Below are positions 1,949 through 27,576 of a stretch of DNA of 64,000 bases, one piece after another. The stretch's first letter is position 1. Every line of letters starts with the position of its first letter. Origin of the DNA: an uncultured Alphaproteobacteria bacterium (lineage in GTDB: Bacteria; Pseudomonadota; Alphaproteobacteria; RF32; CAG-239); assembly GCA_944390915.1 (NCBI GenBank), contig CALXRS010000007.1, positions 2,214 through 66,213 of the forward strand, written 5' to 3'. The notes beneath the pieces are model-generated. The model was not told the origin of the DNA and did not search any database. It saw only the letters and a program-made list of their open reading frames with translations. Made by a program: the position numbers and the translations under genes.

Positions 1949-3754
1949 ATGGTTCACGACTTAAACCTCATCCGCAATTTTGCCATCATTGCCCACATCG
2001 ACCACGGAAAATCGACTTTGGCCGACCGCCTGATTGAATATTGCGGCGGATTGAGCGCGCGCGAAATGCAGGAACAGGTGCTGGACTCAATGGATATCGA
2101 ACGCGAACGGGGCATCACCATCAAGGCGCAGACCGTACGCTTAAACTATACGGCGGCCGACGGCAAAACCTATCAGCTGAACCTCATGGACACCCCTGGA
2201 CACGTCGATTTTTCCTACGAAGTCAGCCGTTCGCTTGCCTCCTGCGAAGGCTCCGTGCTGGTGGTGGACGCCACCCAGGGGGTGGAAGCGCAAACGCTTG
2301 CCAATGTCTATCTGGCCATTGACAACAACCACGAAATCATCCCCGTTCTGAACAAGGTGGATCTGCCGTCTGCCGACCCCGAAAAAGTACGCCGGCAGAT
2401 TGAAGACGTTATCGGGCTCGACGCTTCCGGCGCGGTGGAAACTTCCGGCAAAACGGGGCTCGGCGTGCAAAACCTGCTGGAAGCAATCGTTACCCGTCTG
2501 CCGGCGCCCGCGGGAGACGAAAAAGCGCCGCTTAAAGCGCTCCTAATCGACAGCTGGTACGATTCTTATCTGGGGGTTATCATTTTGCTGCGCGTCAAAG
2601 ACGGCGTTGTTCGCAAAAAGCAGCAAATCCGCATGATGTCCAACAACGCCGTTTATCAGATCGACAAAGTCGGCATCTTCACCCCGAAAATGCAGGATGT
2701 CGAAGCGCTTTACCCCGGCGAAATAGGTTTTATCACCGCCAGCATCAAAAGCGTCGGCGACTGCCGTGTGGGCGATACCATCACCGACAACCGCACCCCC
2801 TGCGACAAGCCTCTGCACGGGTTCAAACCGTCGGTTCCGGTAGTGTTCTGCTCCGTTTTTCCGGTGGACAGCAGCCAATACGAAAATCTGAAAGACGCTC
2901 TGGCCAAGCTGAAACTAAACGACGCCAGCATCGACTATCAAAACGAAAATTCCGCAGCCCTCGGGCTCGGTTTCCGCTGCGGGTTCCTCGGTCTGCTGCA
3001 CATGGAAATCGTGCAGGAGCGCCTAAGCCGCGAATTTGATCTCGACCTCATCACCACCGCGCCGTCGGTTGCCTACACGCTGCACCTGACCAACGGCGAG
3101 TCGCTGACTTTGTGCAACCCGGCCGACATGCCGGATCTTTCCACCGTGCGCTCGATAGAAGAACCTCTGGTACGCGCCACCATTCTTGTGCCCGACGAAT
3201 ATCTCGGCGCGGTTTTAAAACTGTGCAACGACCGGCGCGGCGAACAGGAAGAACTGACCTATGCCGGCAGCCGGGCAATGGTGATTTACAAAATTCCCTT
3301 AAACGAGATTGTGTTTGACTTTTACGACCGCCTGAAATCCATCACCAGCGGCTATGCCAGCTTTGACTACGAGCTTATCGACCGGCAGGAATCCGACCTT
3401 GTCAAAGTGCAGATTCTGATAAATGAAGAACCGGTGGACGCGCTGGCCTTTCTCTGCCACCGATCGGAAGCCGAAGCCCGCGGCCGGCAGATTTGCGAAC
3501 GCCTGAAAGACCTGATACCGCGGCACCTGTTCAAAATTCCGATTCAGGCGGCCATCGGCGGCCGGGTCATCGCCCGCGAAACCATTTCCGCCCTGCGCAA
3601 AGACGTTACCGCCAAATGCTACGGCGGCGACATCACCCGCAAGCGCAAACTGCTCGACAAACAGAAAAAAGGCAAACAGCGCATGCGCCAGTTCGGCAAG
3701 GTGGAGATTCCGCAATCGGCGTTTATCGAAGCCCTGCGCATCGGCGACAAATAA
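1949..3754 (+). CDS. lepA: Translation elongation factor 4 (LepA)
   Basis: 601 aa. GTPase motifs [22 protein letters not shown] and NKVDL, plus the LepA-specific C-terminus ..[37 protein letters not shown]. Confidence 0.97.
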
Positions 3755-3826
3755 TTTACCGCTTGAGAAACGTCGGATTATCGTCTATACTTGAACAAAA
3801 CAAAAATTATTCGGGAGGATATGTTG

Positions 3827-4603
3827 ATGAAATTGCAAACGATGCTGTTGGCCGGATTATGCTGCCTTTATTCAACGGCGGTTTTTGCGCAGGCGGTGGA
3901 AGGCGTGCAGTCTTTCAGCCAGCCGGAAGGCTCCTGGCGGCGCGAAGCGCAGCCCCAAAAAGAAACTCCCAAACCGCAGCAACGCTTTTATGACGAACTG
4001 GGAAAATTTGCCATCGACAATATCGTTAATTCCGAACAAGCGTTTTGTTACGAAGTTTTTCCGCAAAATGCCGAATATGAAGGCTACACGCTGAACAGTT
4101 TTCCGATTCGCGGTTTTTGCGGCGTCATCGGCGAAGAAGTCCGCAACATGATAATTCAATATTTTATGGCCACGGAAGGGAATGTTCTGTTCGATCAGGC
4201 GGAAGAATGCATTATTGAACCGAAAATCATCATCCGTTTTATCCGCGGCGTAGACTATACGGATGTTTTGCTTTCTTCTCCCTGTCACTCCTTTGCCATA
4301 TTTTACGGCGGCGGCGTGCGGCTTTACAATTTCAAACCCGGTGCGCCGATTATCGACGCCATTCTCAAAGCTCTTGCCCCCAAACATGCGGAATTTGTCT
4401 CGCCCGCGCTCTTAAACCAATTGATGCCGGTCGGCGTGGTACAAAATGAACAGCAAAGACGGATTGTCAACCGTCGCAGCGAGCCGATTCGCAAGTGGAC
4501 TCAAAAAGTGGAAGAAGAAGCCGCCAAAAAAGCCGAAGAAAACAAAAAGAACAACAGCGGCTGGAACAAGCTGAAACTGCGCGGCTTCGGCGGAAACAAT
4601 TAA
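3827..4603 (+). CDS. Secreted/periplasmic hypothetical protein with Lys/Glu-rich C-terminal tail
   Basis: The track ORF 3791-4603 starts at a TTG. I prefer the ATG at 3827, 7 nt after GGAGGA (3814-3819), which gives MKLQTMLLAGLCCLYSTAVFAQA/VEG, a signal peptide. No domain recognised. Confidence 0.6.
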   Translation: MKLQTMLLAGLCCLYSTAVFAQAVEGVQSFSQPEGSWRREAQPQKETPKPQQRFYDELGKFAIDNIVNSEQAFCYEVFPQNAEYEGYTLNSFPIRGFCGVIGEEVRNMIIQYFMATEGNVLFDQAEECIIEPKIIIRFIRGVDYTDVLLSSPCHSFAIFYGGGVRLYNFKPGAPIIDAILKALAPKHAEFVSPALLNQLMPVGVVQNEQQRRIVNRRSEPIRKWTQKVEEEAAKKAEENKKNNSGWNKLKLRGFGGNN

Positions 4604-4836: not shown

Positions 4837-7800
4837 TTACCACGGATCGTTATATTTCAGTTTGGGATCATTCAGATTTCCAATATTCGTAGCCCCGCTC
4901 TTATCCCAAAAACTGCGCGGACTCTCTAACTGGTCATAGCCTGTATCCACATAAGTCGGTTCCCACCCTGCTTTGCGGTTAAAATAGCAATAAACGGTCA
5001 CATAGGCTTCCAACTGGCGATATTGCACCGGATACAGATTCCAATAAATGGTATTTGCCGAGACAGAGCCGTCCTCACCTACCTCCATATTTCCCGAGGA
5101 TCCGGTGTTGGCCGATCCGTGTTCTCCCGCAGCGTTCGTTGTGCCAACCATTCCGCTTATGAAATCCGCATAATAATTACGAGGATAAATAAATCCCATA
5201 ACCGTTCCCCAGCCGTTAAAGGTCGTGACTTCATCACACTTACCGTTTGTTTGAAGCCCTCCGCAGTTCGGCAATACCATGGCTCGCAGCCAGGTACTCT
5301 TTTGGAAGGTCAACGGGTTGACCGGTTCCACTTCCTCCGCCTCGGTTCTTTTTTCGCCGTTGACCGTATACCAATACAGATACGGATTGTTATGAGTGGC
5401 AATATCGATGGCGGAATTTTTAGTTACCGGCGTACCGGCCTGAGCCATCGACCAGCCGGAAGGATTGATGGTAATCACTTTCGAATACCCCTGCGGACAA
5501 ACCGGCGTCGGCACAAATCCGAGGTAGGCGGAAGTATAACTTTCGCTTGAAACGCTCTCCCCCGTCAGTTCCGTAAAGGTTGCCGGATCTTTCGTCTCAT
5601 CAGTCCACGGCGTATTATCGGGGTACGTGTTATCAACCACATAAATCCCCTTATTGATAAAGTCCGGCAAAATATCGCTCAACCGCGCGCCGCCGCGGGT
5701 GGTCAGCTTGATATCGTTCATCACCGACGTATAGGCCGGGTTAACCTCAAATTTATCATAAGGCACAATAGCTGCATTATCCGTACCTAAAATGGTCGCC
5801 CCCTCCCCCGGCGATGCGTGCGTCTTATTCAGCGCGCCGACGCTGGGCACCACCTGCGAAATAAAGCGATCCGCGGCTATGTAACCGATAGCTTCGGTTG
5901 TCGTGTCATAACCTTCCGATATCGTTTTGTTGGACAGGCGGCCGCCGCTTGCACTGTCAATATTAATTGCTCCGCGACGAATGTAAACGCTGCCGCGCTC
6001 ATCCGTTGTCGTCGTAGTGCTGTCGTCATTAGTTGTTGTAACCGCATCATGCGTTTCGTTGTTGTCCACCTGCAGGATAATATCCCCGGCGGCCAGAGTC
6101 GTCGTCGTGCTGGCCTCCGTAGCCAAAATCTGAAAATCGCCCTTGTTGACATAAAGCGAGGGGTTGCCCATACCTACACGAAGAGCATTGCCGTCGGCAT
6201 CGGTGGCATCGGCGCTGACCGACGGATTGCTCGGATATTCGTCCACAGCAGTATCGGCTGACGAAACGACGTCATAATCATAGATGGCAAAACCGCCGGC
6301 AAAGCGTGATGAAATATAACCTTCCTCCCTCTTGGCTTTAATATCCATCACCGGCCGCGCCTGATCGTCACTATCGAGCACCGGCTCGCTGATCGTCAGA
6401 TCCATGCCGCCCAACCCGAAAATACCGTTGTCGTCAACATCCCGCCGATACAAATAATCATGCGGATAATCAGCCGCGGCAGCCGTCGAGGACGTTGTTA
6501 TATTATCGGCAAAATGCTGCGAAATAAAACGGCTGTTATCCGCCACCGAATCGAGATAGGCGCCTCCTACTCCGCTATAGTCGCTGTAATAGGCGCGCAG
6601 CATGTTGTCCTGAATAGAAACCATGCCGTCGGTGATAAACGAGCCGTCGCTGAGCATTGTCGACAGGGAAATGCCCGTGGCCGCGCCTATTTTAACCTGT
6701 CCGGCAGCCGTGTTGTTGCTTATCGTCGCATAGGCTCCCATACCGGAATCGGCAACGGAGACGCCGGGCGTATATTCCAGCAAACCGACATGATTGCCGT
6801 CCGCATCGCCGACTTCGGTATCGACCAGAATATTGACCCCGCTTTCATGGTTCATCCTGATACCCGTCTGAATTTCCGTTCCGTCGTCGGAAGTATCGTC
6901 CTGTTCGGCTATCTGCAAACGATATCCTTTGTTGGAAAAGGCGTCGGTATAGGGGCCTACCAGCAAATAACCGTTTCCGGAATCCGTAACCGCGCCCGTA
7001 TCATCGGTAGCACTGGCTCTCTTTTTGGTTACCACATAAAATTCCTCGTCCTTGGTCACCTTGTCAAAATCTTCCGGCACAACACCGGCGCGCAGGGTGG
7101 CCGCATCGACGTTATAAGCCTTCAGTTTTGCCGTTTTTAAGCTGTCTTTCACAAAAGCCGGACCGTTTACCGTCAAGGCATGTTCGTTTCCGGTATCAGA
7201 ATCCGCAATATCCGTACTTTCAAATTTGCCGTTTTCGATTTTCGGCGTGCCGTCCGCGTTATAGCTGTATGTCGTATAGGAACCTTTGTGAGCATCGCCG
7301 CCGCCGACAATGACCGCCGGCGTCGCATTGGAGGTTACCCATTGATTTATGTCATTTTCATCATATTTTCCGCCGTCCGGATCGGTTTTCGGATTGCGCA
7401 CGCTCAAAGCGCCGTCAAAGATGTTGGCACGCGAGGCATTAATGGCTAACATCTTTTGCGTGCCGACAATTCCCGTTTCCGTCTCGCCTTCGGCATTGAC
7501 CGTTTCTCCTTCGGTTTTGGAGACAAATTCCATGGACGTATTATCCTTATCAACCGTCAACAGAGCGCCGGCCGTTTCTTCATCGATATTGCCATATTCC
7601 ATTTTGCCGGTGGTAACGCTGTATATGGCGTTGCCGCGAACGGTGGTGGTAACGGGATTGTTCGGATCGCTGTTATCCTCATGGGTGGCCGTTTCGTAAT
7701 ATTTGATACCGCCGTCGTTTTCGGTGGCGTCTTCTTCGCTGCGCACCGTAAACAACGAAGCCAACGCGGCAAAGTTTCCTTCCATAAAGGCACCGCCGCC

Positions 7801-8775
7801 GCTGCCGATATAAAGGGTATAGTCCAGATTCGGTTCATAGGTTTGTTCGTAGGGAATGGCTTCCAGTACGGTTGTTTCCGCCAACCTCTCGTCAACCTGG
7901 TTGGCCTCGCCGCCGACCATCCACTCCAGCTGCGGCGTCATGATAATCTGGTTCACCTGCCGAATGTTGTGAATCTTGTCGTTATAGGCCATGAACAGAT
8001 CCGTCTCCATGGAGTTCAGCAGATGGTCGTTCTGCGGCTCGTCCTTGCGGTGCAGCACGTCTTCGTTGGCCAAGCCCTGAGAGGAAATCGGCTGCAGCGA
8101 AGAAACGACGAAAGAATTTTCGGGCAGGGTGACGTCGCCCAGCTCCGCGTCGGAAGTGAGGCTCCAAATACCCTGAGCGCCCATAATCTCGCCGTTGGCA
8201 TCTTTATAGCCGCCGTTGCTGCCGACCATGGTGGCAATTCGCGCCACACGGGTCGAGGGAAAATCTTCTCCCTCGTTCGGCACCGCGGTCAAAAAGCCGG
8301 TAACCGTTTCCGCTACGATGGTTTCGTTGCCCTCTTCGTCGGTTTCGGTACCGGTTGTTTTGCGCAGCACGACCTGGAAAGAATTGTTGTCGGTTTCCGA
8401 GCTCGAAAACAGCTTGCTGTCTTGCGTTTTACCGTCTTTCAAAAAGCCGTAGGGCAAATATTCGCACAAGTGAGAAATATCAAACCTAACCGACGTGTCA
8501 TCGGTAAAACCGGCATAGTCCACGCTGTTAACGTTACATCCGTTTACCACCTTTTCGCCGTCGGTAATCCGCGTAAAGTTGTCTTTGATGTAGGCATCCA
8601 TGGCATCGGCCAGCACCCGCAACTGATTTGAGGCGTTGATATCCTGCAGTTCGGTCGTCCGTTCCGCCGCTTTTTTGTACAAAATAGGCGTAACCATTGC
8701 AATCAGCCCCAACATGGCCATTGCTTCCACCAGCATGGTGCCGGTTTCGTTTACTTTGTCAAATATCTTTTTCAT
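4837..8775 (-). CDS. Giant (1312 aa) surface protein with a prepilin/TadE-like class III signal peptide; putative pilus-associated adhesin
   Basis: N-terminus is MKKIFDKVNETG/TMLVEAMAMLGLIAMVTPILY: a short charged leader, Gly at -1, Glu at +5, then about 20 hydrophobic residues. The rest is D/T/G/N/S-rich and almost Cys-free, apart from a Cys-containing C-terminal ~250 aa. GGGGGAAAA RBS upstream. Starts 21 nt downstream of the 8797-9684 gene. Confidence 0.6.
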   Translation of the reverse strand: MKKIFDKVNETGTMLVEAMAMLGLIAMVTPILYKKAAERTTELQDINASNQLRVLADAMDAYIKDNFTRITDGEKVVNGCNVNSVDYAGFTDDTSVRFDISHLCEYLPYGFLKDGKTQDSKLFSSSETDNNSFQVVLRKTTGTETDEEGNETIVAETVTGFLTAVPNEGEDFPSTRVARIATMVGSNGGYKDANGEIMGAQGIWSLTSDAELGDVTLPENSFVVSSLQPISSQGLANEDVLHRKDEPQNDHLLNSMETDLFMAYNDKIHNIRQVNQIIMTPQLEWMVGGEANQVDERLAETTVLEAIPYEQTYEPNLDYTLYIGSGGGAFMEGNFAALASLFTVRSEEDATENDGGIKYYETATHEDNSDPNNPVTTTVRGNAIYSVTTGKMEYGNIDEETAGALLTVDKDNTSMEFVSKTEGETVNAEGETETGIVGTQKMLAINASRANIFDGALSVRNPKTDPDGGKYDENDINQWVTSNATPAVIVGGGDAHKGSYTTYSYNADGTPKIENGKFESTDIADSDTGNEHALTVNGPAFVKDSLKTAKLKAYNVDAATLRAGVVPEDFDKVTKDEEFYVVTKKRASATDDTGAVTDSGNGYLLVGPYTDAFSNKGYRLQIAEQDDTSDDGTEIQTGIRMNHESGVNILVDTEVGDADGNHVGLLEYTPGVSVADSGMGAYATISNNTAAGQVKIGAATGISLSTMLSDGSFITDGMVSIQDNMLRAYYSDYSGVGGAYLDSVADNSRFISQHFADNITTSSTAAAADYPHDYLYRRDVDDNGIFGLGGMDLTISEPVLDSDDQARPVMDIKAKREEGYISSRFAGGFAIYDYDVVSSADTAVDEYPSNPSVSADATDADGNALRVGMGNPSLYVNKGDFQILATEASTTTTLAAGDIILQVDNNETHDAVTTTNDDSTTTTTDERGSVYIRRGAINIDSASGGRLSNKTISEGYDTTTEAIGYIAADRFISQVVPSVGALNKTHASPGEGATILGTDNAAIVPYDKFEVNPAYTSVMNDIKLTTRGGARLSDILPDFINKGIYVVDNTYPDNTPWTDETKDPATFTELTGESVSSESYTSAYLGFVPTPVCPQGYSKVITINPSGWSMAQAGTPVTKNSAIDIATHNNPYLYWYTVNGEKRTEAEEVEPVNPLTFQKSTWLRAMVLPNCGGLQTNGKCDEVTTFNGWGTVMGFIYPRNYYADFISGMVGTTNAAGEHGSANTGSSGNMEVGEDGSVSANTIYWNLYPVQYRQLEAYVTVYCYFNRKAGWEPTYVDTGYDQLESPRSFWDKSGATNIGNLNDPKLKYNDPW

Positions 8776-8796
8776 GGCTTGTTTTCCCCCGTAAAA

Positions 8797-9684
8797 CTAG
8801 AACCTGGACATATAAACCAGACAATAATCGCAGCTGCTGTACATGTCGTCAAGACTCTGCGGATTGGCCGGATCATAGTCTTCGTTGTGCCGGCGCAGAC
8901 TTCCGCAAACATTGGCAAAGGACTTTTCTCCCGTTGACGTTTCCGAAATATAGCTCGGAATCGGCAGATAAAATTGTCCGCCCTGCCCGTAAACGCCCAT
9001 CGGCGTATGAATAACCTCGGTGTATTGGTTTTCGTCGGTATAGACTTCCGAATCCGTCAGTTCGTCGCGGTCAATGGCATATCCCAATCCGTGTGTAAAT
9101 CCGGTTGTCGTCCGCATGGCGCCGAGCAACATGGCATCCGGCTTGCCGGAACGCACGTCGCGCCATTTGGAGGGCACGCAGCCGTAAGTTACCAGATAAA
9201 CGGCCGTCGACAACCCGCTGCAGCAATTGGAACCGTCGCCGAGATCGGGGTTAAGCCCCGTACCATCGTCCGAGTCGCCGGTTGTTCCGTCGTCGGTCGC
9301 GCCGTCCGCATCGGACGGCGGCAAACCCGCCGTGCAGCTGGAAGGCAATGCCAACACGCCTTCTTCTTCCAGATGGTTAACATCCAGACAATACACCCAG
9401 CTCGTAAATTTCGTAAAGCCGCTGTCCTGCTGGAAACCGTAGGGCAGATCGGCTTGAAGCATGTCCGCGGTCAGCTCTCCCGGACGATAGCTCAGGTTAA
9501 GCACCGTCGAATTGCGGTTGCGCTTGGACAAATAGTTCATCGCCGCGCGGTGTTGCACGTACATTTTGGTGATAATCGTCTGTGCCTGCGGCTCGACATA
9601 CAATTCCTTGATATCGGGGCGCAGCGACGTATTCAGCGCAAACAACGCGGCAATAAAAGTTGCTATAATGACCCACAGATACAT
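8797..9684 (-). CDS. N-terminally membrane-anchored hypothetical protein (295 aa), co-operonic with the giant pilin-like gene
   Basis: MYLWVIIATFIAALFALNTSL.. is a hydrophobic anchor. There is an acidic G/D/T linker (PPSDADGATDDGTTGDSDDGTG) and several Cys pairs. An in-frame stop lies 5 codons upstream of the ATG. Confidence 0.6.
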   Translation of the reverse strand: MYLWVIIATFIAALFALNTSLRPDIKELYVEPQAQTIITKMYVQHRAAMNYLSKRNRNSTVLNLSYRPGELTADMLQADLPYGFQQDSGFTKFTSWVYCLDVNHLEEEGVLALPSSCTAGLPPSDADGATDDGTTGDSDDGTGLNPDLGDGSNCCSGLSTAVYLVTYGCVPSKWRDVRSGKPDAMLLGAMRTTTGFTHGLGYAIDRDELTDSEVYTDENQYTEVIHTPMGVYGQGGQFYLPIPSYISETSTGEKSFANVCGSLRRHNEDYDPANPQSLDDMYSSCDYCLVYMSRF

Positions 9685-9912
9685 AGGCTCATCCCATCAA
9701 TACACCAATTTCAAATGTATTCTAACATAAACAACTTTAAAAAAAAAGCAAATTAAATCTCACGCGCCCTATTTCACATATTTGTAACATCGTTTTTGCG
9801 GTTTCGAATCGCTTGGTTCTGAAAAAACGGCTCATAAAAACATCTTTTTTCTTGTCTCGCAAAAAAAATGAGCTACGATATTTAACCGTAGTTTTTACAA
9901 AGGATAACCGGA

Positions 9913-10083
9913 ATGGTTAAAGTCAATCAGATTTCCTGCCCGCGGCACGGTCGTCTTGCGCGCCGGCTGTTGCTGACTCTTGCCGTCGCCGCAATTTGCA
10001 CCGTCTTGTTGCAATGCCTCGAAACAGGTTTTCGACCGGCAGAGAAAAACACGCCGCCCGCAACGGAGGAAACAAGGTTATGA
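9913..10083 (+). CDS. Possible small membrane protein (56 aa), translationally coupled to the next gene
   Basis: Too short for the ORF track. My translation is MVKVNQISCPRHGRLARRLLLTLAVAAICTVLLQCLETGFRPAEKNTPPATEETRL. An AAGGA lies upstream, and the stop TGA overlaps the ATG at 10080 (ATGA). Confidence 0.3.
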   Translation: MVKVNQISCPRHGRLARRLLLTLAVAAICTVLLQCLETGFRPAEKNTPPATEETRL

Positions 10084-25097: not shown

Positions 25098-25131
25098 GAA
25101 GACAAACAAAATAACAGGGGAGTTTCAAACT

Positions 25132-25356
25132 ATGTTTAACGATAAAATCAAAAGAATGATCGGCGAAGAGCTGCAAAAATACCGCAGCAGCCGCTTTTGG
25201 CAGCTGAAAACTCTGGCTGCCAGAACCGGCATCCCGTGGTATATTATCGACAATATGGAAATCGGCAGTGTGCGCCGATGGGAATATTACCGCCGCTTGC
25301 TCGATTTTTATGGCAAGGAAATCAAAATCGTGCTGGTTGACAGCAAAAAAGAATGA
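25132..25356 (+). CDS. Small XRE-family helix-turn-helix protein (74 aa)
   Basis: I prefer the ATG at 25132, 9 nt after GGGGAG (25117-25122). The track start at 25018 would read through the unit 4 terminator. MFNDKIKRMIGEELQKYRSSRFWQLKTLAARTGIPWYIIDNMEIGSVRRWEYYRRLL.. has HTH_XRE-like spacing. A terminator follows. Confidence 0.7.
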   Translation: MFNDKIKRMIGEELQKYRSSRFWQLKTLAARTGIPWYIIDNMEIGSVRRWEYYRRLLDFYGKEIKIVLVDSKKE

Positions 25357-25370
25357 CCAAAACGGAGAAA

Positions 25371-25393
25371 GGCGGCCTCAAACCGCCTTTTTT
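25371..25393 (+). terminator. Intrinsic terminator of the HTH gene
   Basis: ggcgg (25371-25375), loop cctcaaa, ccgcc (25383-25387), then T6. Confidence 0.7.
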
Positions 25394-25418
25394 ATATTCT
25401 GTACGCAAACACCGATCA

Positions 25419-25843
25419 GAATTTTGCGAGCCTGCACCAAACCGCTCCAGCCGCCCGTAAACCTCCCCTCTTAAAAGCGCGTTATATGAGGCGGATAATA
25501 AGAAATCAGGGGATTGGCAAGGGCGCGTACAAAACAGTACGTAACCGCCGCCAAGCCCCGCAATTTCTGTATTAGCCGCCCGTAAACCTCCCCCTCTTAA
25601 AAGCGCGTTATATGAGGCGGATAAAGTGGTTTGGAAAGCGAGCAAAATTTTAGTGTACAAAGAAGTACATGAATTTTGCGAGCCTGCACCAAACCGCTCT
25701 AGCCGCCCGTAAACCTCCCCTCTTAAAAGCGCGTTATATGAGGCGGATAATAAGAAATCAGGGGATTGGCAAGGGCGCGTACAAAACAGTACGTAACCGC
25801 CGCCGAGCCCCGCAATTTCTGTATTAGCCGCCCATAGAACCGC
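25419..25843. repeat. Second tandem array: about 1.7 copies of a 252-bp unit (layout A-R-B-R-C-A-R-B-R')
   Basis: The ~170-bp block at 25419-25590 recurs at 25671-25842. The 50-bp R element agccgcccgtaaacctcccctcttaaaagcgcgttatatgaggcggataa is at 25449, 25574 and 25701, with a partial copy at 25826. Extended 24-bp imperfect hairpins lie at 25501-25568 and 25753-25820, and another hairpin at 25642-25679. Confidence 0.85.
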
Positions 25844-25845
25844 TT

Positions 25846-27576
25846 TTAAGCTTTGAGCATGATTTCAGGCGCCTCAACCCCCAACAACTCCAGCAGCTTG
25901 ACAAGGACATCGCGGGTGAGTTTGGCAAGCGTGAGACGGGAGGCGGCAATCTCCGCGCCGGCGGCGCCCATTATCGGCGAAGCGTTGTAAAAACTGCTGA
26001 AGAGCTGCGCCAGAGTGTAGGTGTAATCGGAGATGATGCTCGGTTCGAGTTCGGCCGCGGCGCGAAAAACGACGTTGTTCAGCTGCGAAAGCCTGAGCAC
26101 GAGCGCGCGCTCTTCCGCGTTGGTAATGGTAACTTTGCCGGGGGTTATGTTTTTGTTTTTGCGCATGATGGAGTTGATGCGCGCAATTGCATATTGGATA
26201 TAGGGACCGGTTTTGCCGTCAAAATTGGCAAAGTCGTCCAGTTCAAAGACGTAGCCTGAGGCAATGTTGTTTTTCAGATCCTGGAATTTTATCGCGCCGA
26301 CGGCTACCTGCTCCACCAGATGGTCGATATATTCCTGCGTAAGGCCGTTGGCGGGATCGGCGGCCGGCATGGATTCGGATACTTTGTCCTTGGACATTTT
26401 TATCAGGTCGGCAAGGTTCATCACGCCGCCGTCGCGGGTTTTGAAAGGCTTGCCGTCCGCGCCGTTGACGGTGCCGAAACCGATGTGCAAAAGCTTAACG
26501 TTCGGAGCAATGCCAAGTTTTTCGGCGGCCTCAAACACCTGTTCAAAATGCAGCGACTGCCGTTTATCGACAAAATAGATAATTTCATCGGCGTGCAGAT
26601 CGTCCACCCGCATTTTGATGGTGGCAAGATCGGTTGCCTGATAGGTAAAACCGCCGTCCGATTTTTCGAGAATAACCGGCGGCTTGGGCTTGTTGCTCTC
26701 GTCCAGACGGATAATCCAGGCACCGTCGGAATATTCCAGCAGGCCTTTTTCTTCGGCAATTCGTTTGATTTCAAAACAGGTTTCGTGGGCGTCGCTTTCT
26801 CCGAGCCAGAGGTCAAAATGCACGCCGAGCTCACGGTAATTTTCTTTTACCGCCTCGACGGACACCCGGCGGATATGCTGCCAGGCTTTGCGATAAACGG
26901 GGTCGCCGTCCTGAAATCTGGCGGTAATCTGCCGCGCCGTTTCTTTGGCGGCGGGATCTTCTTTGCAGCGGCTGTTGGCCTGTTTGTAAAAGCGCGTAAT
27001 TTCCGCAATGTCGTATGTTTCCATTTTGTCCAGATTGCCGTCGGCGGCAATGACTTCCGCCAGAATCATACCGATGGGCGTTCCCCAGTCGCCGAAATGA
27101 ACATCGGCTATCGGCCGGTTGCCGACAAATTTTTCGATTCGCCGCATCGATTCGCCGATAACGCCGGAGCGCAGATGGCCGACATGCATTTCTTTGGCCA
27201 CGTTCGGCCCGCCGTAATCCATCACCACGGTTTTCGGGGTTGCAACCACGGCGCAGCCGAAGCGCTCATCACCGGCCATTCTATCGGCAACGTCGGCCAA
27301 AAAGGAATCCGTCAGCGTCAGATTCAAAAACCCCGGTCCGTCAACCGACACTTTGGCAAAATCTTTGTCTTCGCGCAGGCGGGCGGCGATTTCCTCGCCG
27401 ATGGCGCGGGGATTTTTCTTTTCGATTTTTGCCAGCGCCAGCGCGCCGTTGCATTGAAAATCGCTCAGATCCGGGCGGTCGGAGGGACGGGCAGCGGCAT
27501 ATTTTTCATCGAGTCCCAAAGCGGCAAAAGCCGATTGCAGTTTACCGTTGATAATTTCATCCAACACATAAGTCAT
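25846..27576 (-). CDS. argS: Arginine--tRNA ligase
   Basis: 576 aa. Class I HIGH-type motif ..KEMHVGHLRSGVIG.. and a DALR anticodon-binding C-terminus. Confidence 0.95.
   Translation of the reverse strand: MTYVLDEIINGKLQSAFAALGLDEKYAAARPSDRPDLSDFQCNGALALAKIEKKNPRAIGEEIAARLREDKDFAKVSVDGPGFLNLTLTDSFLADVADRMAGDERFGCAVVATPKTVVMDYGGPNVAKEMHVGHLRSGVIGESMRRIEKFVGNRPIADVHFGDWGTPIGMILAEVIAADGNLDKMETYDIAEITRFYKQANSRCKEDPAAKETARQITARFQDGDPVYRKAWQHIRRVSVEAVKENYRELGVHFDLWLGESDAHETCFEIKRIAEEKGLLEYSDGAWIIRLDESNKPKPPVILEKSDGGFTYQATDLATIKMRVDDLHADEIIYFVDKRQSLHFEQVFEAAEKLGIAPNVKLLHIGFGTVNGADGKPFKTRDGGVMNLADLIKMSKDKVSESMPAADPANGLTQEYIDHLVEQVAVGAIKFQDLKNNIASGYVFELDDFANFDGKTGPYIQYAIARINSIMRKNKNITPGKVTITNAEERALVLRLSQLNNVVFRAAAELEPSIISDYTYTLAQLFSSFYNASPIMGAAGAEIAASRLTLAKLTRDVLVKLLELLGVEAPEIMLKA

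What the first reader, a model, noticed from the sequence alone, without database searches (positions are those of the whole stretch)
25419..25843. Second, unrelated ~252-bp tandem array packed with hairpins and CU-rich CCTCCCCTC motifs, immediately after the HTH gene
The layout is A-R-B-R-C-A-R-B-R'. The 50-bp R element occurs at 25449, 25574 and 25701, with a truncated copy at 25826 that abuts the argS stop. R carries CCTCCCCTC(TT) between a short ccgcc/ggcgg inverted repeat. That motif is the complement of an AGGGGAGG-type Shine-Dalgarno sequence, and 7 nt (CTCCCCT) are complementary to the RBS of the adjacent HTH gene (AGGGGAG, 25116-25122). Segment B folds into a 24-bp, 68-nt extended hairpin (25501-25568 and again 25753-25820). 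Segment C folds into a 13-bp hairpin (25642-25679). I could find no convincing promoter or terminator on either strand, so the transcribed strand is unknown. The region could be another sRNA array, a large structured RNA, a REP/MITE-like element or a protein-binding scaffold. Its unit length is nearly the same as that of array 1.
Basis: seen in the sequence. Interest (0 to 1): 0.6.

Follow-up and report, generated by a model that had tools for sequence, protein, structure and literature searches.

The report
Cluster of stop-codon-anchored palindromic repeats
The flagged "array" is three and a half copies of a roughly 130-base hairpin-forming DNA repeat that relatives of this uncultured gut bacterium carry by the dozen, each lodged against the stop codon of a gene; it is a new family of a familiar kind of bacterial repeat, not a small-RNA array tied to the neighbouring regulator.

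Summary
In detail: 25419-25584 recurs at 25671-25836 (98%). The true period is 126 nt, not 252. The natural units are three rod-like palindromes that run from TTAA to TTAA: B 25471-25600, C 25597-25726 and B 25723-25849. A half C unit lies at 25419-25448. The last rod overlaps the argS stop codon. "R" is the junction of two neighbouring rods.

This genome has no other copy. A covariance model of unit C finds full-length copies in 113 of 121 genomes of the same family, up to the scoring cap (27-33) per genome. The argS site is filled, differently filled or empty in congeners, and strains of this species differ by whole units.

In 17 of 21 loci from different genomes, the unit's 3' end overlaps the stop codon of a gene on the opposite strand. 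None of the 21 abutted a gene in the other orientation.

The CCTCCCCTC motif is not part of the family consensus. AGGGGAG occurs 101 times in the genome. Rfam finds nothing.

Verdict: a local cluster of an undescribed ERIC/MITE-like repeat family. It lies in the argS 3' region and is not linked to the HTH gene. How it spreads is unknown; Y1 transposase and Ssn-type nucleases do not track it.

The parts
25419..25448 (+). Segment A: the 3' arm of a truncated C-type unit. It is the unit furthest from argS.
   Evidence: It matches 25671-25700 within the 166-nt repeat. The 5' arm and apex are missing.
25471..25600 (+). Unit B1. A B-subfamily palindromic rod running TTAA to TTAA, with apex GTACAAAACAGTAC at 25527-25540.
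   Evidence: MFE rod of -49.8 kcal/mol, z -4.6. B-type copies are dispersed in relatives G005, G029 and G033.
25597..25726 (+). Unit C. A C-subfamily rod with apex core AAAATTTTAGTGTACAAAGAAGTACATGAATTTT at 25644-25677.
   Evidence: It scores 126 bits against model R1 and is full length. The core is 85-100% identical across genera. 31 of 42 pairs show compensatory change.
25723..25849 (+). Unit B2. A complete rod, TTAAAAGCG...CGCTTTTAA, whose last bases include the complement of the argS stop codon.
   Evidence: -62.4 kcal/mol, z -8.1. The argS ORF ends at 25846. The same junction is seen after grpE and argS in G005.
25449..25498 (+). Junction 'R', also at 25575-25624 and 25701-25750. It consists of the right end of one rod, the CU-rich linker (CCTCCCCTC at 25462-25470, 25587-25596 and 25714-25722), TTAA, and the left end of the next rod.
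   Evidence: In strain variant X4 the left end has the canonical form CTTAAAAGTCGGAGAAC.
25846..27576 (-). argS, the gene whose stop codon anchors the cluster.
   Evidence: Pfam tRNA-synt_1d, DALR_1 and Arg_tRNA_synt_N.
25365..25393 (.). Bidirectional terminator-like hairpin between the HTH gene and the cluster.
   Evidence: Terminator scan hits on both strands.
25132..25356 (+). It is a neighbour, not part of the element.
   Evidence: ORF. No Pfam hit at E<=0.01. It is absent from the argS-downstream region of G020, G022, G001 and G010.

Best explanation
The region is a local cluster of a non-coding, hairpin-forming repeat family. It is made of B-C-B units plus a distal half C. The family is specific to this family of uncultured gut Alphaproteobacteria and is of the ERIC/MITE kind.

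Shown:
- Each unit is a rod-like imperfect palindrome of about 126-134 bp. Its ends read TAAAAG...CTTTTA. Its apex is strongly conserved: TGTAC-N6-GTACA above a TA bulge and a G.T wobble.
- Units are polar.
- Across relatives they sit with one fixed end on the stop codon of a gene on the opposite strand. They are usually on the C-rich (lagging) strand, so the anchoring gene lies on the leading strand.
- They are often in tandem runs of two or three.
- Unit number varies between species and between strains.

Inferred:
- Units were installed at the argS stop codon in an ancestor.
- The present 3.4-unit array arose by unequal recombination or tandem duplication between the near-identical junctions.
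- The cluster lies in the argS 3' untranslated region, between the stop codon and a shared bidirectional terminator. There the rods (A-run, long stem, T-run) may act as 3'-end structures or partial terminators.
- The family spreads through an unidentified, probably strand-specific, trans-acting activity.
- The CU-rich motif is junction filler in this lineage, not a regulatory anti-SD site.
For: - Repeat anatomy and folding.
- No other copy in this genome.
- Dispersed homologues in relatives, by BLAST.
- Alignments and covariation: 26 of 40 pairs compensatory; in 44 copies, 97.2% of cells paired, 31 of 42 pairs with double changes, 0 of 500 shuffles reaching this.
- Model R1 hits 113 of 121 family genomes in 22 of 23 genera, with counts up to the cap. 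In the order sample it hits 95 of 101.
- Polarity: forward hits score 92-145 bits (most 113-145), against 34-65 bits for the reverse-strand hits on the same copies.
- Stop-codon anchoring: 17 of 21 loci, with none anchored the other way.
- The orthologous argS site is filled by C (G020, G022, G015, G023), by B-type units (G005, G001, G010), by a truncated B-type unit (G025), or is empty (G011, G027, G013).
- Strain variants lack exactly one unit.
- Units on one contig are co-oriented, and GC skew agrees in 10 of 12 regions, including this window.
- A one-base indel between R copies shifts the reading frame, which argues against coding.
Against: - No transposase or other mobilising enzyme was found. 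Y1_Tnp is absent from the high-copy genomes, and small GIY-YIG genes do not track copy number.
- A target-site duplication could not be separated from the terminal TTAA/TA of the inverted repeat.
- The centre of the unit, not its ends, is the most conserved part. This is atypical for a transposase-driven MITE.
- In this genome the family is confined to one locus, so it is not currently active here.
- In G031 most copies sit inside a larger shared mosaic and break the skew rule.
- Transcription data are only sparse, undirected contigs.
Confidence: 0.8

Rival explanations
1. The array is a set of trans-acting small RNAs, or one structured RNA. Its single-stranded CCUCCCCUC linkers would pair with Shine-Dalgarno sequences, for example that of the adjacent HTH gene.
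For: - The folds are strong and covary.
- On the + strand the conserved non-Watson-Crick positions are G.U wobbles: 156 G.T cells against 26 A.C cells.
- There is a weak promoter-like match at 25471 and 25723.
- One contig from a run labelled RNA-Seq runs from the HTH gene to 25446.
Against: - The CU motif is not in the family consensus and is missing from the homologous junctions in G005.
- AGGGGAG/CTCCCCT occurs 101 times in the genome.
- There is no Rfam match and no terminator per unit.
- A bidirectional terminator separates the HTH gene from the array.
- Unit placement and orientation follow the stop codon of an upstream gene in 17 of 21 loci. That is a property of an inserted repeat, not of free-standing sRNA genes.
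Confidence: 0.05
2. The GTAC-N6-GTAC apexes are operator sites, making the array a protein-binding scaffold for the neighbouring 74-aa regulator or another dimeric DNA-binding protein.
For: - The apex is a 16-bp inverted repeat. It is the most conserved part of the unit in 44 copies.
- Three apexes lie 126 bp apart, next to a small ORF.
Against: - The same apex occurs in dozens of copies per genome at gene ends that have no such neighbour.
- The arms covary to keep a roughly 60-bp rod. A duplex operator does not need that.
- The conserved TA bulge and G.T wobble are features of a folded single strand.
- The ORF has no detectable HTH domain in Pfam.
Confidence: 0.05
3. The units are mainly functional 3'-end modules kept by selection, either bidirectional terminators or mRNA stabilisers. 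Their repetition would reflect recruitment rather than selfish spread.
For: - In the gene sense each rod starts at TAA plus an A-run and ends in a T-run.
- Placement is at stop codons, often between convergent genes.
- The units are conserved across 22 genera.
- In G002 the apex hairpin is followed directly by TTTTT.
- ERIC elements affect mRNA stability in an orientation-dependent way (PMC2229807).
Against: - The terminator scan does not call the rods.
- The stems next to the T-run are AU-rich.
- Many orthologous genes, including argS in G011, G027 and G013, lack a unit.
- Eight of 121 family genomes have none.
- A separate canonical terminator follows the cluster here and in G020, G022 and G001.
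Confidence: 0.2

Closest known systems
ERIC / IRU (enterobacterial repetitive intergenic consensus), as reviewed in PMC2229807
   Same: - An imperfect palindrome of about 127 bp.
- Non-coding, with dispersed copies in transcribed intergenic regions.
- Conserved across several genera.
- The transcript folds into a long stem-loop.
- Orientation matters.
- No known cognate transposase.
   Different: - Different host clade: uncultured gut Alphaproteobacteria.
- Sequence was not compared here.
- These units are anchored on stop codons in one fixed polarity (17 of 21 loci, none the other way).
- The apex rather than the ends is the conserved part.
- Tandem runs are common.
Classical bacterial MITEs (Correia/NEMIS, RUP, RPE, and the alphaproteobacterial CIR); PMC2229807
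   Same: - Under 200 bp.
- Terminal inverted repeats with TA at the tips.
- Long stem-loop transcripts.
- Presence/absence polymorphism between strains and species.
   Different: - No partner IS was found.
- A target-site duplication is not demonstrable.
- Orientation is strongly strand-biased (co-oriented on contigs and tracking GC skew), which a TA-targeting cut-and-paste transposase would not predict.
- Unlike RPE, the units are not found in frame within genes.
REP/BIME with RAYT (Y1 HUH transposase), and NTS/SRM hairpins with Ssn GIY-YIG nucleases (PMC11893778)
   Same: - Hairpin repeats clustered in mosaics at gene ends.
- Conserved bulge and mismatch features suggest recognition of a folded single strand.
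- Strand polarity.
   Different: - The units are 3-4 times longer than REP or SRM.
- The SRM pattern has no match in the array.
- Y1_Tnp is absent from the high-copy genomes.
- Small GIY-YIG genes do not track copy number.

Membership tests
Bacterial MITE (criteria of PMC2229807) | Small (<200 bp) and non-coding | tested here: met
   Units are 126-134 bp. A one-base indel between R copies puts repeated copies in different frames, and ORFs across the array have no Pfam support.
Bacterial MITE (criteria of PMC2229807) | Terminal inverted repeats with TA at the termini | tested here: met
   TTAAAAGCG...CGCTTTTAA in unit B2. The ends read (T)AAAAG...CTTTT(A) in many of the 44 copies.
Bacterial MITE (criteria of PMC2229807) | Target-site duplication | tested here: inconclusive
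   TTAA/TA flanks both ends but cannot be told apart from the inverted repeat. The filled and empty argS sites are in different species with diverged flanks.
Bacterial MITE (criteria of PMC2229807) | Many dispersed copies and filled/empty site polymorphism | tested here: met
   There are no other copies in this genome. The argS site is filled or empty among congeners.
Bacterial MITE (criteria of PMC2229807) | A cognate autonomous IS or transposase sharing the ends | tested here: inconclusive
   Only two candidates were tested, Y1_Tnp and GIY-YIG, and neither correlates. Other transposase families were not screened.
ERIC/IRU | Sequence similarity to the ERIC consensus; hosts in Enterobacteriaceae or Vibrio | not tested
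   No ERIC reference sequence was compared. The host is an uncultured gut alphaproteobacterium according to earlier scan notes, so this is an analogue, not a member.
REP/RAYT | A 20-40 bp palindrome with a RAYT (Y1 transposase) gene in the genome | tested here: not met
   The units are about 130 bp. PF01797 is absent from G029, G031, G032 and G033, which have 16-32 copies.
Ssn-related motifs (NTS/SRM) | Match to the SRM pattern and association with a small GIY-YIG Ssn gene | tested here: not met
   The SRM regular expression has no match in 25301-25900 on either strand. Small GIY-YIG genes are absent from G031, G079, G109 and G131 and present in G100, which has no unit.
Anti-SD small RNAs (C/U-rich motif sRNAs) or any Rfam family | Own promoter and terminator, a conserved CU-rich seed, and an Rfam model match | tested here: not met
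   No Rfam hit reaches even half of any family's gathering score. There is no per-unit terminator. The CU motif is not conserved in homologues.
Intrinsic (Rho-independent) terminator | A GC-rich stem directly followed by a U-run on the transcribed strand | tested here: inconclusive
   In the argS sense each rod ends in TTTT, but the basal stem is AU-rich and the scan did not call it. No 3'-end mapping is available.

The most novel reading that the evidence does not exclude
The rods may not be ordinary cut-and-paste MITEs. They may be substrates of an unrecognised strand-specific machinery, acting on single-stranded DNA or coupled to transcription. That machinery would read the conserved apex (TGTAC-N6-GTACA with its TA bulge and G.T wobble). 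It would install units right after the TAA stop codon of leading-strand genes in one polarity, with repeated visits building tandem runs such as this one.
Probability: 0.2. Interest if true: 0.75.

Novelty: new member of a known kind. Interest (0 to 1): 0.35.

Why it matters
For this window, the result removes a candidate regulatory RNA. The array is repeat DNA in the argS 3' region, and genome annotators should mask it rather than call sRNAs or ORFs there.

More broadly, the family is an apparently undescribed and very widespread repeat. It occurs in over 90% of genomes of a gut alphaproteobacterial family and breaks MAG assemblies. Its fixed stop-codon anchoring, strand polarity and deeply conserved apex are not explained by known transposases. 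The family could therefore serve three purposes:
- a strain-typing marker;
- a natural test bed for how long hairpins at gene ends affect termination and mRNA decay;
- a lead to a new hairpin-recognising enzyme.

Tried and rejected
- **Rfam.** cmscan at E<=10 gave only weak chance hits.
- **Coding repeat.** The 126/252 period is a multiple of 3, and a 112-aa minus-strand ORF spans the array. This was rejected: a one-base indel between R copies shifts the frame, the ORF runs through the HTH terminator, and there is no Pfam hit.
- **CRISPR-like array.** Rejected because the 'spacers' B and C are themselves conserved repeats, and the spacing varies from 119 to 226 in relatives.
- **RAYT/REP link.** PF01797 is absent from the high-copy genomes.
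- **Ssn/SRM link.** There is no SRM match and no correlation with small GIY-YIG genes.
- **Relics in this genome.** The ten other CTTAAAAGCG sites look like ordinary, mostly coding, sequence and none shows element arms (by eye). Only 9 GTAC-N5-8-GTAC sites exist, and none outside the array forms a rod.
- **RNA evidence.** Only Logan contigs were available, without direction and at low depth. They are compatible with argS 3'-UTR coverage but not decisive.
- **Python access to loci.** Loci from other genomes were not available in the Python box. The ORF-adjacency test was therefore done locus by locus on 21 loci.

Full report
**1. Observation**

The repeat is real. The repeat finder gives 25419-25584 and 25671-25836 at 98% identity, spacing 252. 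A 34-nt core of R is 100% identical at 25465, 25591 and 25717, spacing 126.

Minimum-free-energy folds extend each B or C hairpin into the flanking R sequences (GGCGGATAA...TTAGCCGCC). The region is therefore three long rods joined by linkers of about 30 nt. Taken from TTAA to TTAA, the units fold as follows:

| Unit | Coordinates | MFE (kcal/mol) | z-score |
|---|---|---|---|
| B1 | 25471-25604 | -49.8 | -4.6 |
| C | 25597-25730 | -47.8 | -6.1 |
| B2 | 25723-25852 | -62.4 | -8.1 |

DNA energy parameters give the same rods. Unit B2 is a complete palindrome, TTAAAAGCG...CGCTTTTAA. Its last bases are the complement of the argS stop codon at 25846-25848. B and C share both ends and the apex (GTAC-N6-GTAC above a G.T pair). 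They are two subfamilies of one design.

**2. Not an Rfam family, not coding**

cmscan at E<=10 finds no match that reaches even half of a family's gathering score. A 112-aa minus-strand ORF crosses the array. The extra C in R2 puts repeated copies in different frames, the ORF runs through the HTH terminator, and Pfam finds nothing.

The only promoter-like match is weak: TTAAAA-17-GATAAT, 9 of 12. A bidirectional terminator-like hairpin at 25365-25393 separates the 74-aa ORF from the array.

**3. Distribution**

The 1.54-Mb assembly holds no other copy. Only 9 GTAC-N5-8-GTAC sites exist genome-wide, and only the three in this array form rods.

In relatives the picture reverses. BLAST of the array hits 27 of the 60 related genomes searched, all in the same family or order. 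There are several non-syntenic places per genome, and the 34-nt apex of C is 85-100% identical. Aligning 17 copies from 17 genomes shows a full-length palindrome of about 134 nt, and 26 of 40 predicted pairs carry compensatory changes.

A covariance model (R1) finds full-length copies in 113 of 121 genomes of the family, covering 22 of 23 genera.

In 44 copies, 97.2% of pair cells are standard pairs and 31 of 42 pairs show changes on both sides. None of 500 shuffles reaches this, and slid controls drop to 29-51%. That alignment was fitted to the model, so it leans towards the model's structure. The independent MAFFT/RNAalifold result agrees.

**4. Polarity and anchoring**

Each copy gives a forward hit of 92-145 bits (most 113-145). 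The reverse-strand hits on the same copies score only 34-65 bits, so the near-palindrome has a direction.

I examined ORFs around the best copy in 21 different genomes.
- In 17, a long ORF on the strand opposite the model ends inside the last 3-19 nt of the model's 3' end.
- In 2, such an ORF ends 24 nt away.
- In 2, no ORF abuts the unit.
- None of the 21 showed a gene abutting the unit in the other orientation.

The 3' ends read CGnnnTTT(T)nA, a T-run plus A. This is the complement of a TAA stop followed by an A-run. The window obeys the rule at argS. So do G005 (at grpE and argS) and G020/G022 (at argS).

Copies on the same contig are almost always co-oriented. In 10 of 12 sampled regions, including this window (contig GC skew -0.07), the model strand lies on the C-rich strand, so the anchoring gene lies on the G-rich, presumably leading, strand. 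The two exceptions are on G031:C14. In that genome 15 of 18 copies are embedded in a larger shared mosaic of other hairpin modules.

**5. Which strand folds better**

Over 1837 pair cells there are 156 G.T cells and 26 A.C cells on the model (+ window) strand. This gives 97.2% paired on that strand and 90.1% on its complement. Most of the excess comes from four positions. Three of them interchange U.G, C-G and U-A, which is the pattern expected of a wobble-tolerant single strand. Excluding those four positions, the counts are 36 and 25.

The better-folding strand is antisense to the anchoring gene. This is suggestive of single-strand recognition but is not proof.

**6. Dynamics at this locus**

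The sequence downstream of argS differs among congeners:
- a single C unit in G020, G022, G015 and G023;
- B-type units in G005, G001 and G010;
- a truncated unit in G025;
- no unit in G011, G027 and G013.

Several relatives' contigs end inside these repeats.

Within the species, metagenome contigs show two variants. One lacks the first B unit (joint 25470 to 25614) and has the canonical left end CTTAAAAGTCGGAGAAC. The other lacks the last B unit (joint 25699 to 25825). The second variant also appears in a metatranscriptome contig that continues into argS.

Together with the 98-100% identity of the internal junctions, this points to expansion and contraction by recombination between junctions. 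That step is inference.

**7. The CU-rich motif**

CCTCCCCTC lies at the rod-rod junctions. It is absent from the family consensus and from the homologous junctions in G005. Some relatives do have CCCTC-like bases just outside the 5' end.

The 7-mer CTCCCCT and its complement AGGGGAG together occur 101 times in the genome, so complementarity to the HTH ribosome-binding site is not specific. The HTH gene is not found next to the units at argS in G020, G022, G001 or G010.

**8. Who moves it?**

The Y1 transposase (PF01797) is absent from G029, G031, G032 and G033, which hold 16-32 copies. Small Ssn-like GIY-YIG genes show no consistent relation to copy number:

| Genomes | Unit copies | Small GIY-YIG genes |
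|---|---|---|
| G031, G079, G109, G131 | high | none |
| G100 | none | present |
| G035 | one | five |

The published SRM pattern (PMC11893778) has no match in the array. The agent of spread is unknown.

**9. Comparison with known elements**

The closest analogues are ERIC/IRU and the MITE group reviewed in PMC2229807. They share several features with these units:
- size under 200 bp;
- terminal inverted repeats with TA tips;
- transcripts that fold into long stem-loops;
- effects that depend on orientation.

Three features depart from the usual MITE picture: stop-codon anchoring in one polarity, strand bias, and an apex more conserved than the ends. I file it as a new member of a known kind. 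The array itself is an ordinary cluster of that family, which lowers the interest of this particular finding. The family's placement rule is the part worth following.

Earlier notes from this scan describe the same kind of element in other genomes. I treated them as leads and re-tested anchoring, polarity and apex conservation here.

Noticed in passing
L120 (G031:C23) 3694-3800 and 3995-4100: Next to the C-type unit lie three tandem 36-nt hairpin repeats (GTCATGCTGAACTTGTTTCAGCATCCCCT), which look like NTS/SRM-type CGTCAT hairpins. There is also a separate palindromic element of about 106 nt (CAAAAAAAGGTACGTTTAAATGCGC...). Together they form a mosaic that recurs in 15 of 18 sampled copies in that genome.
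   Followed up: partly
L014 (G005:C88) about 1680-1800: A C-type unit after grpE has its apex replaced by an insert of about 125 nt. The insert carries two other hairpins, one of them terminator-like (AAAAAGGCAACGTTGAGTTGCCTTTTT). The rods can therefore host nested insertions.
   Followed up: no
G097 (many contigs); G000:C13:262-420: G097 has 16 Y1_Tnp (IS200/IS605-type) matches, many with internal stops, yet no copy of the palindromic unit. The window's own genome has only a Y1_Tnp fragment.
   Followed up: no
G035 (C1, C4, C5, C7): There are five small (95-177 aa) GIY-YIG ORFs in a genome with a single copy of the unit. This may be an Ssn-type system with its own, different repeats.
   Followed up: no
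window 25132-25356: The 74-aa ORF called an HTH gene gives no Pfam hit at E<=0.01. Its HTH assignment was not confirmed here.
   Followed up: partly
L034, L039, L040, L054 (contig ends in G005, G023, G015, G026): Contigs of several related MAGs end within or just after the repeat units downstream of argS. The family fragments short-read assemblies.
   Followed up: no
G031:C14 about 5000-10000: GC skew switches from negative to positive here, which is an origin-like skew minimum. The two units on this contig are oriented against the usual skew rule.
   Followed up: no
L137 (G138:C1:156000-175999): This 20-kb stretch has 34-36% GC against about 44% elsewhere in that genome, and almost no GC skew. 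It may be an island.
   Followed up: no
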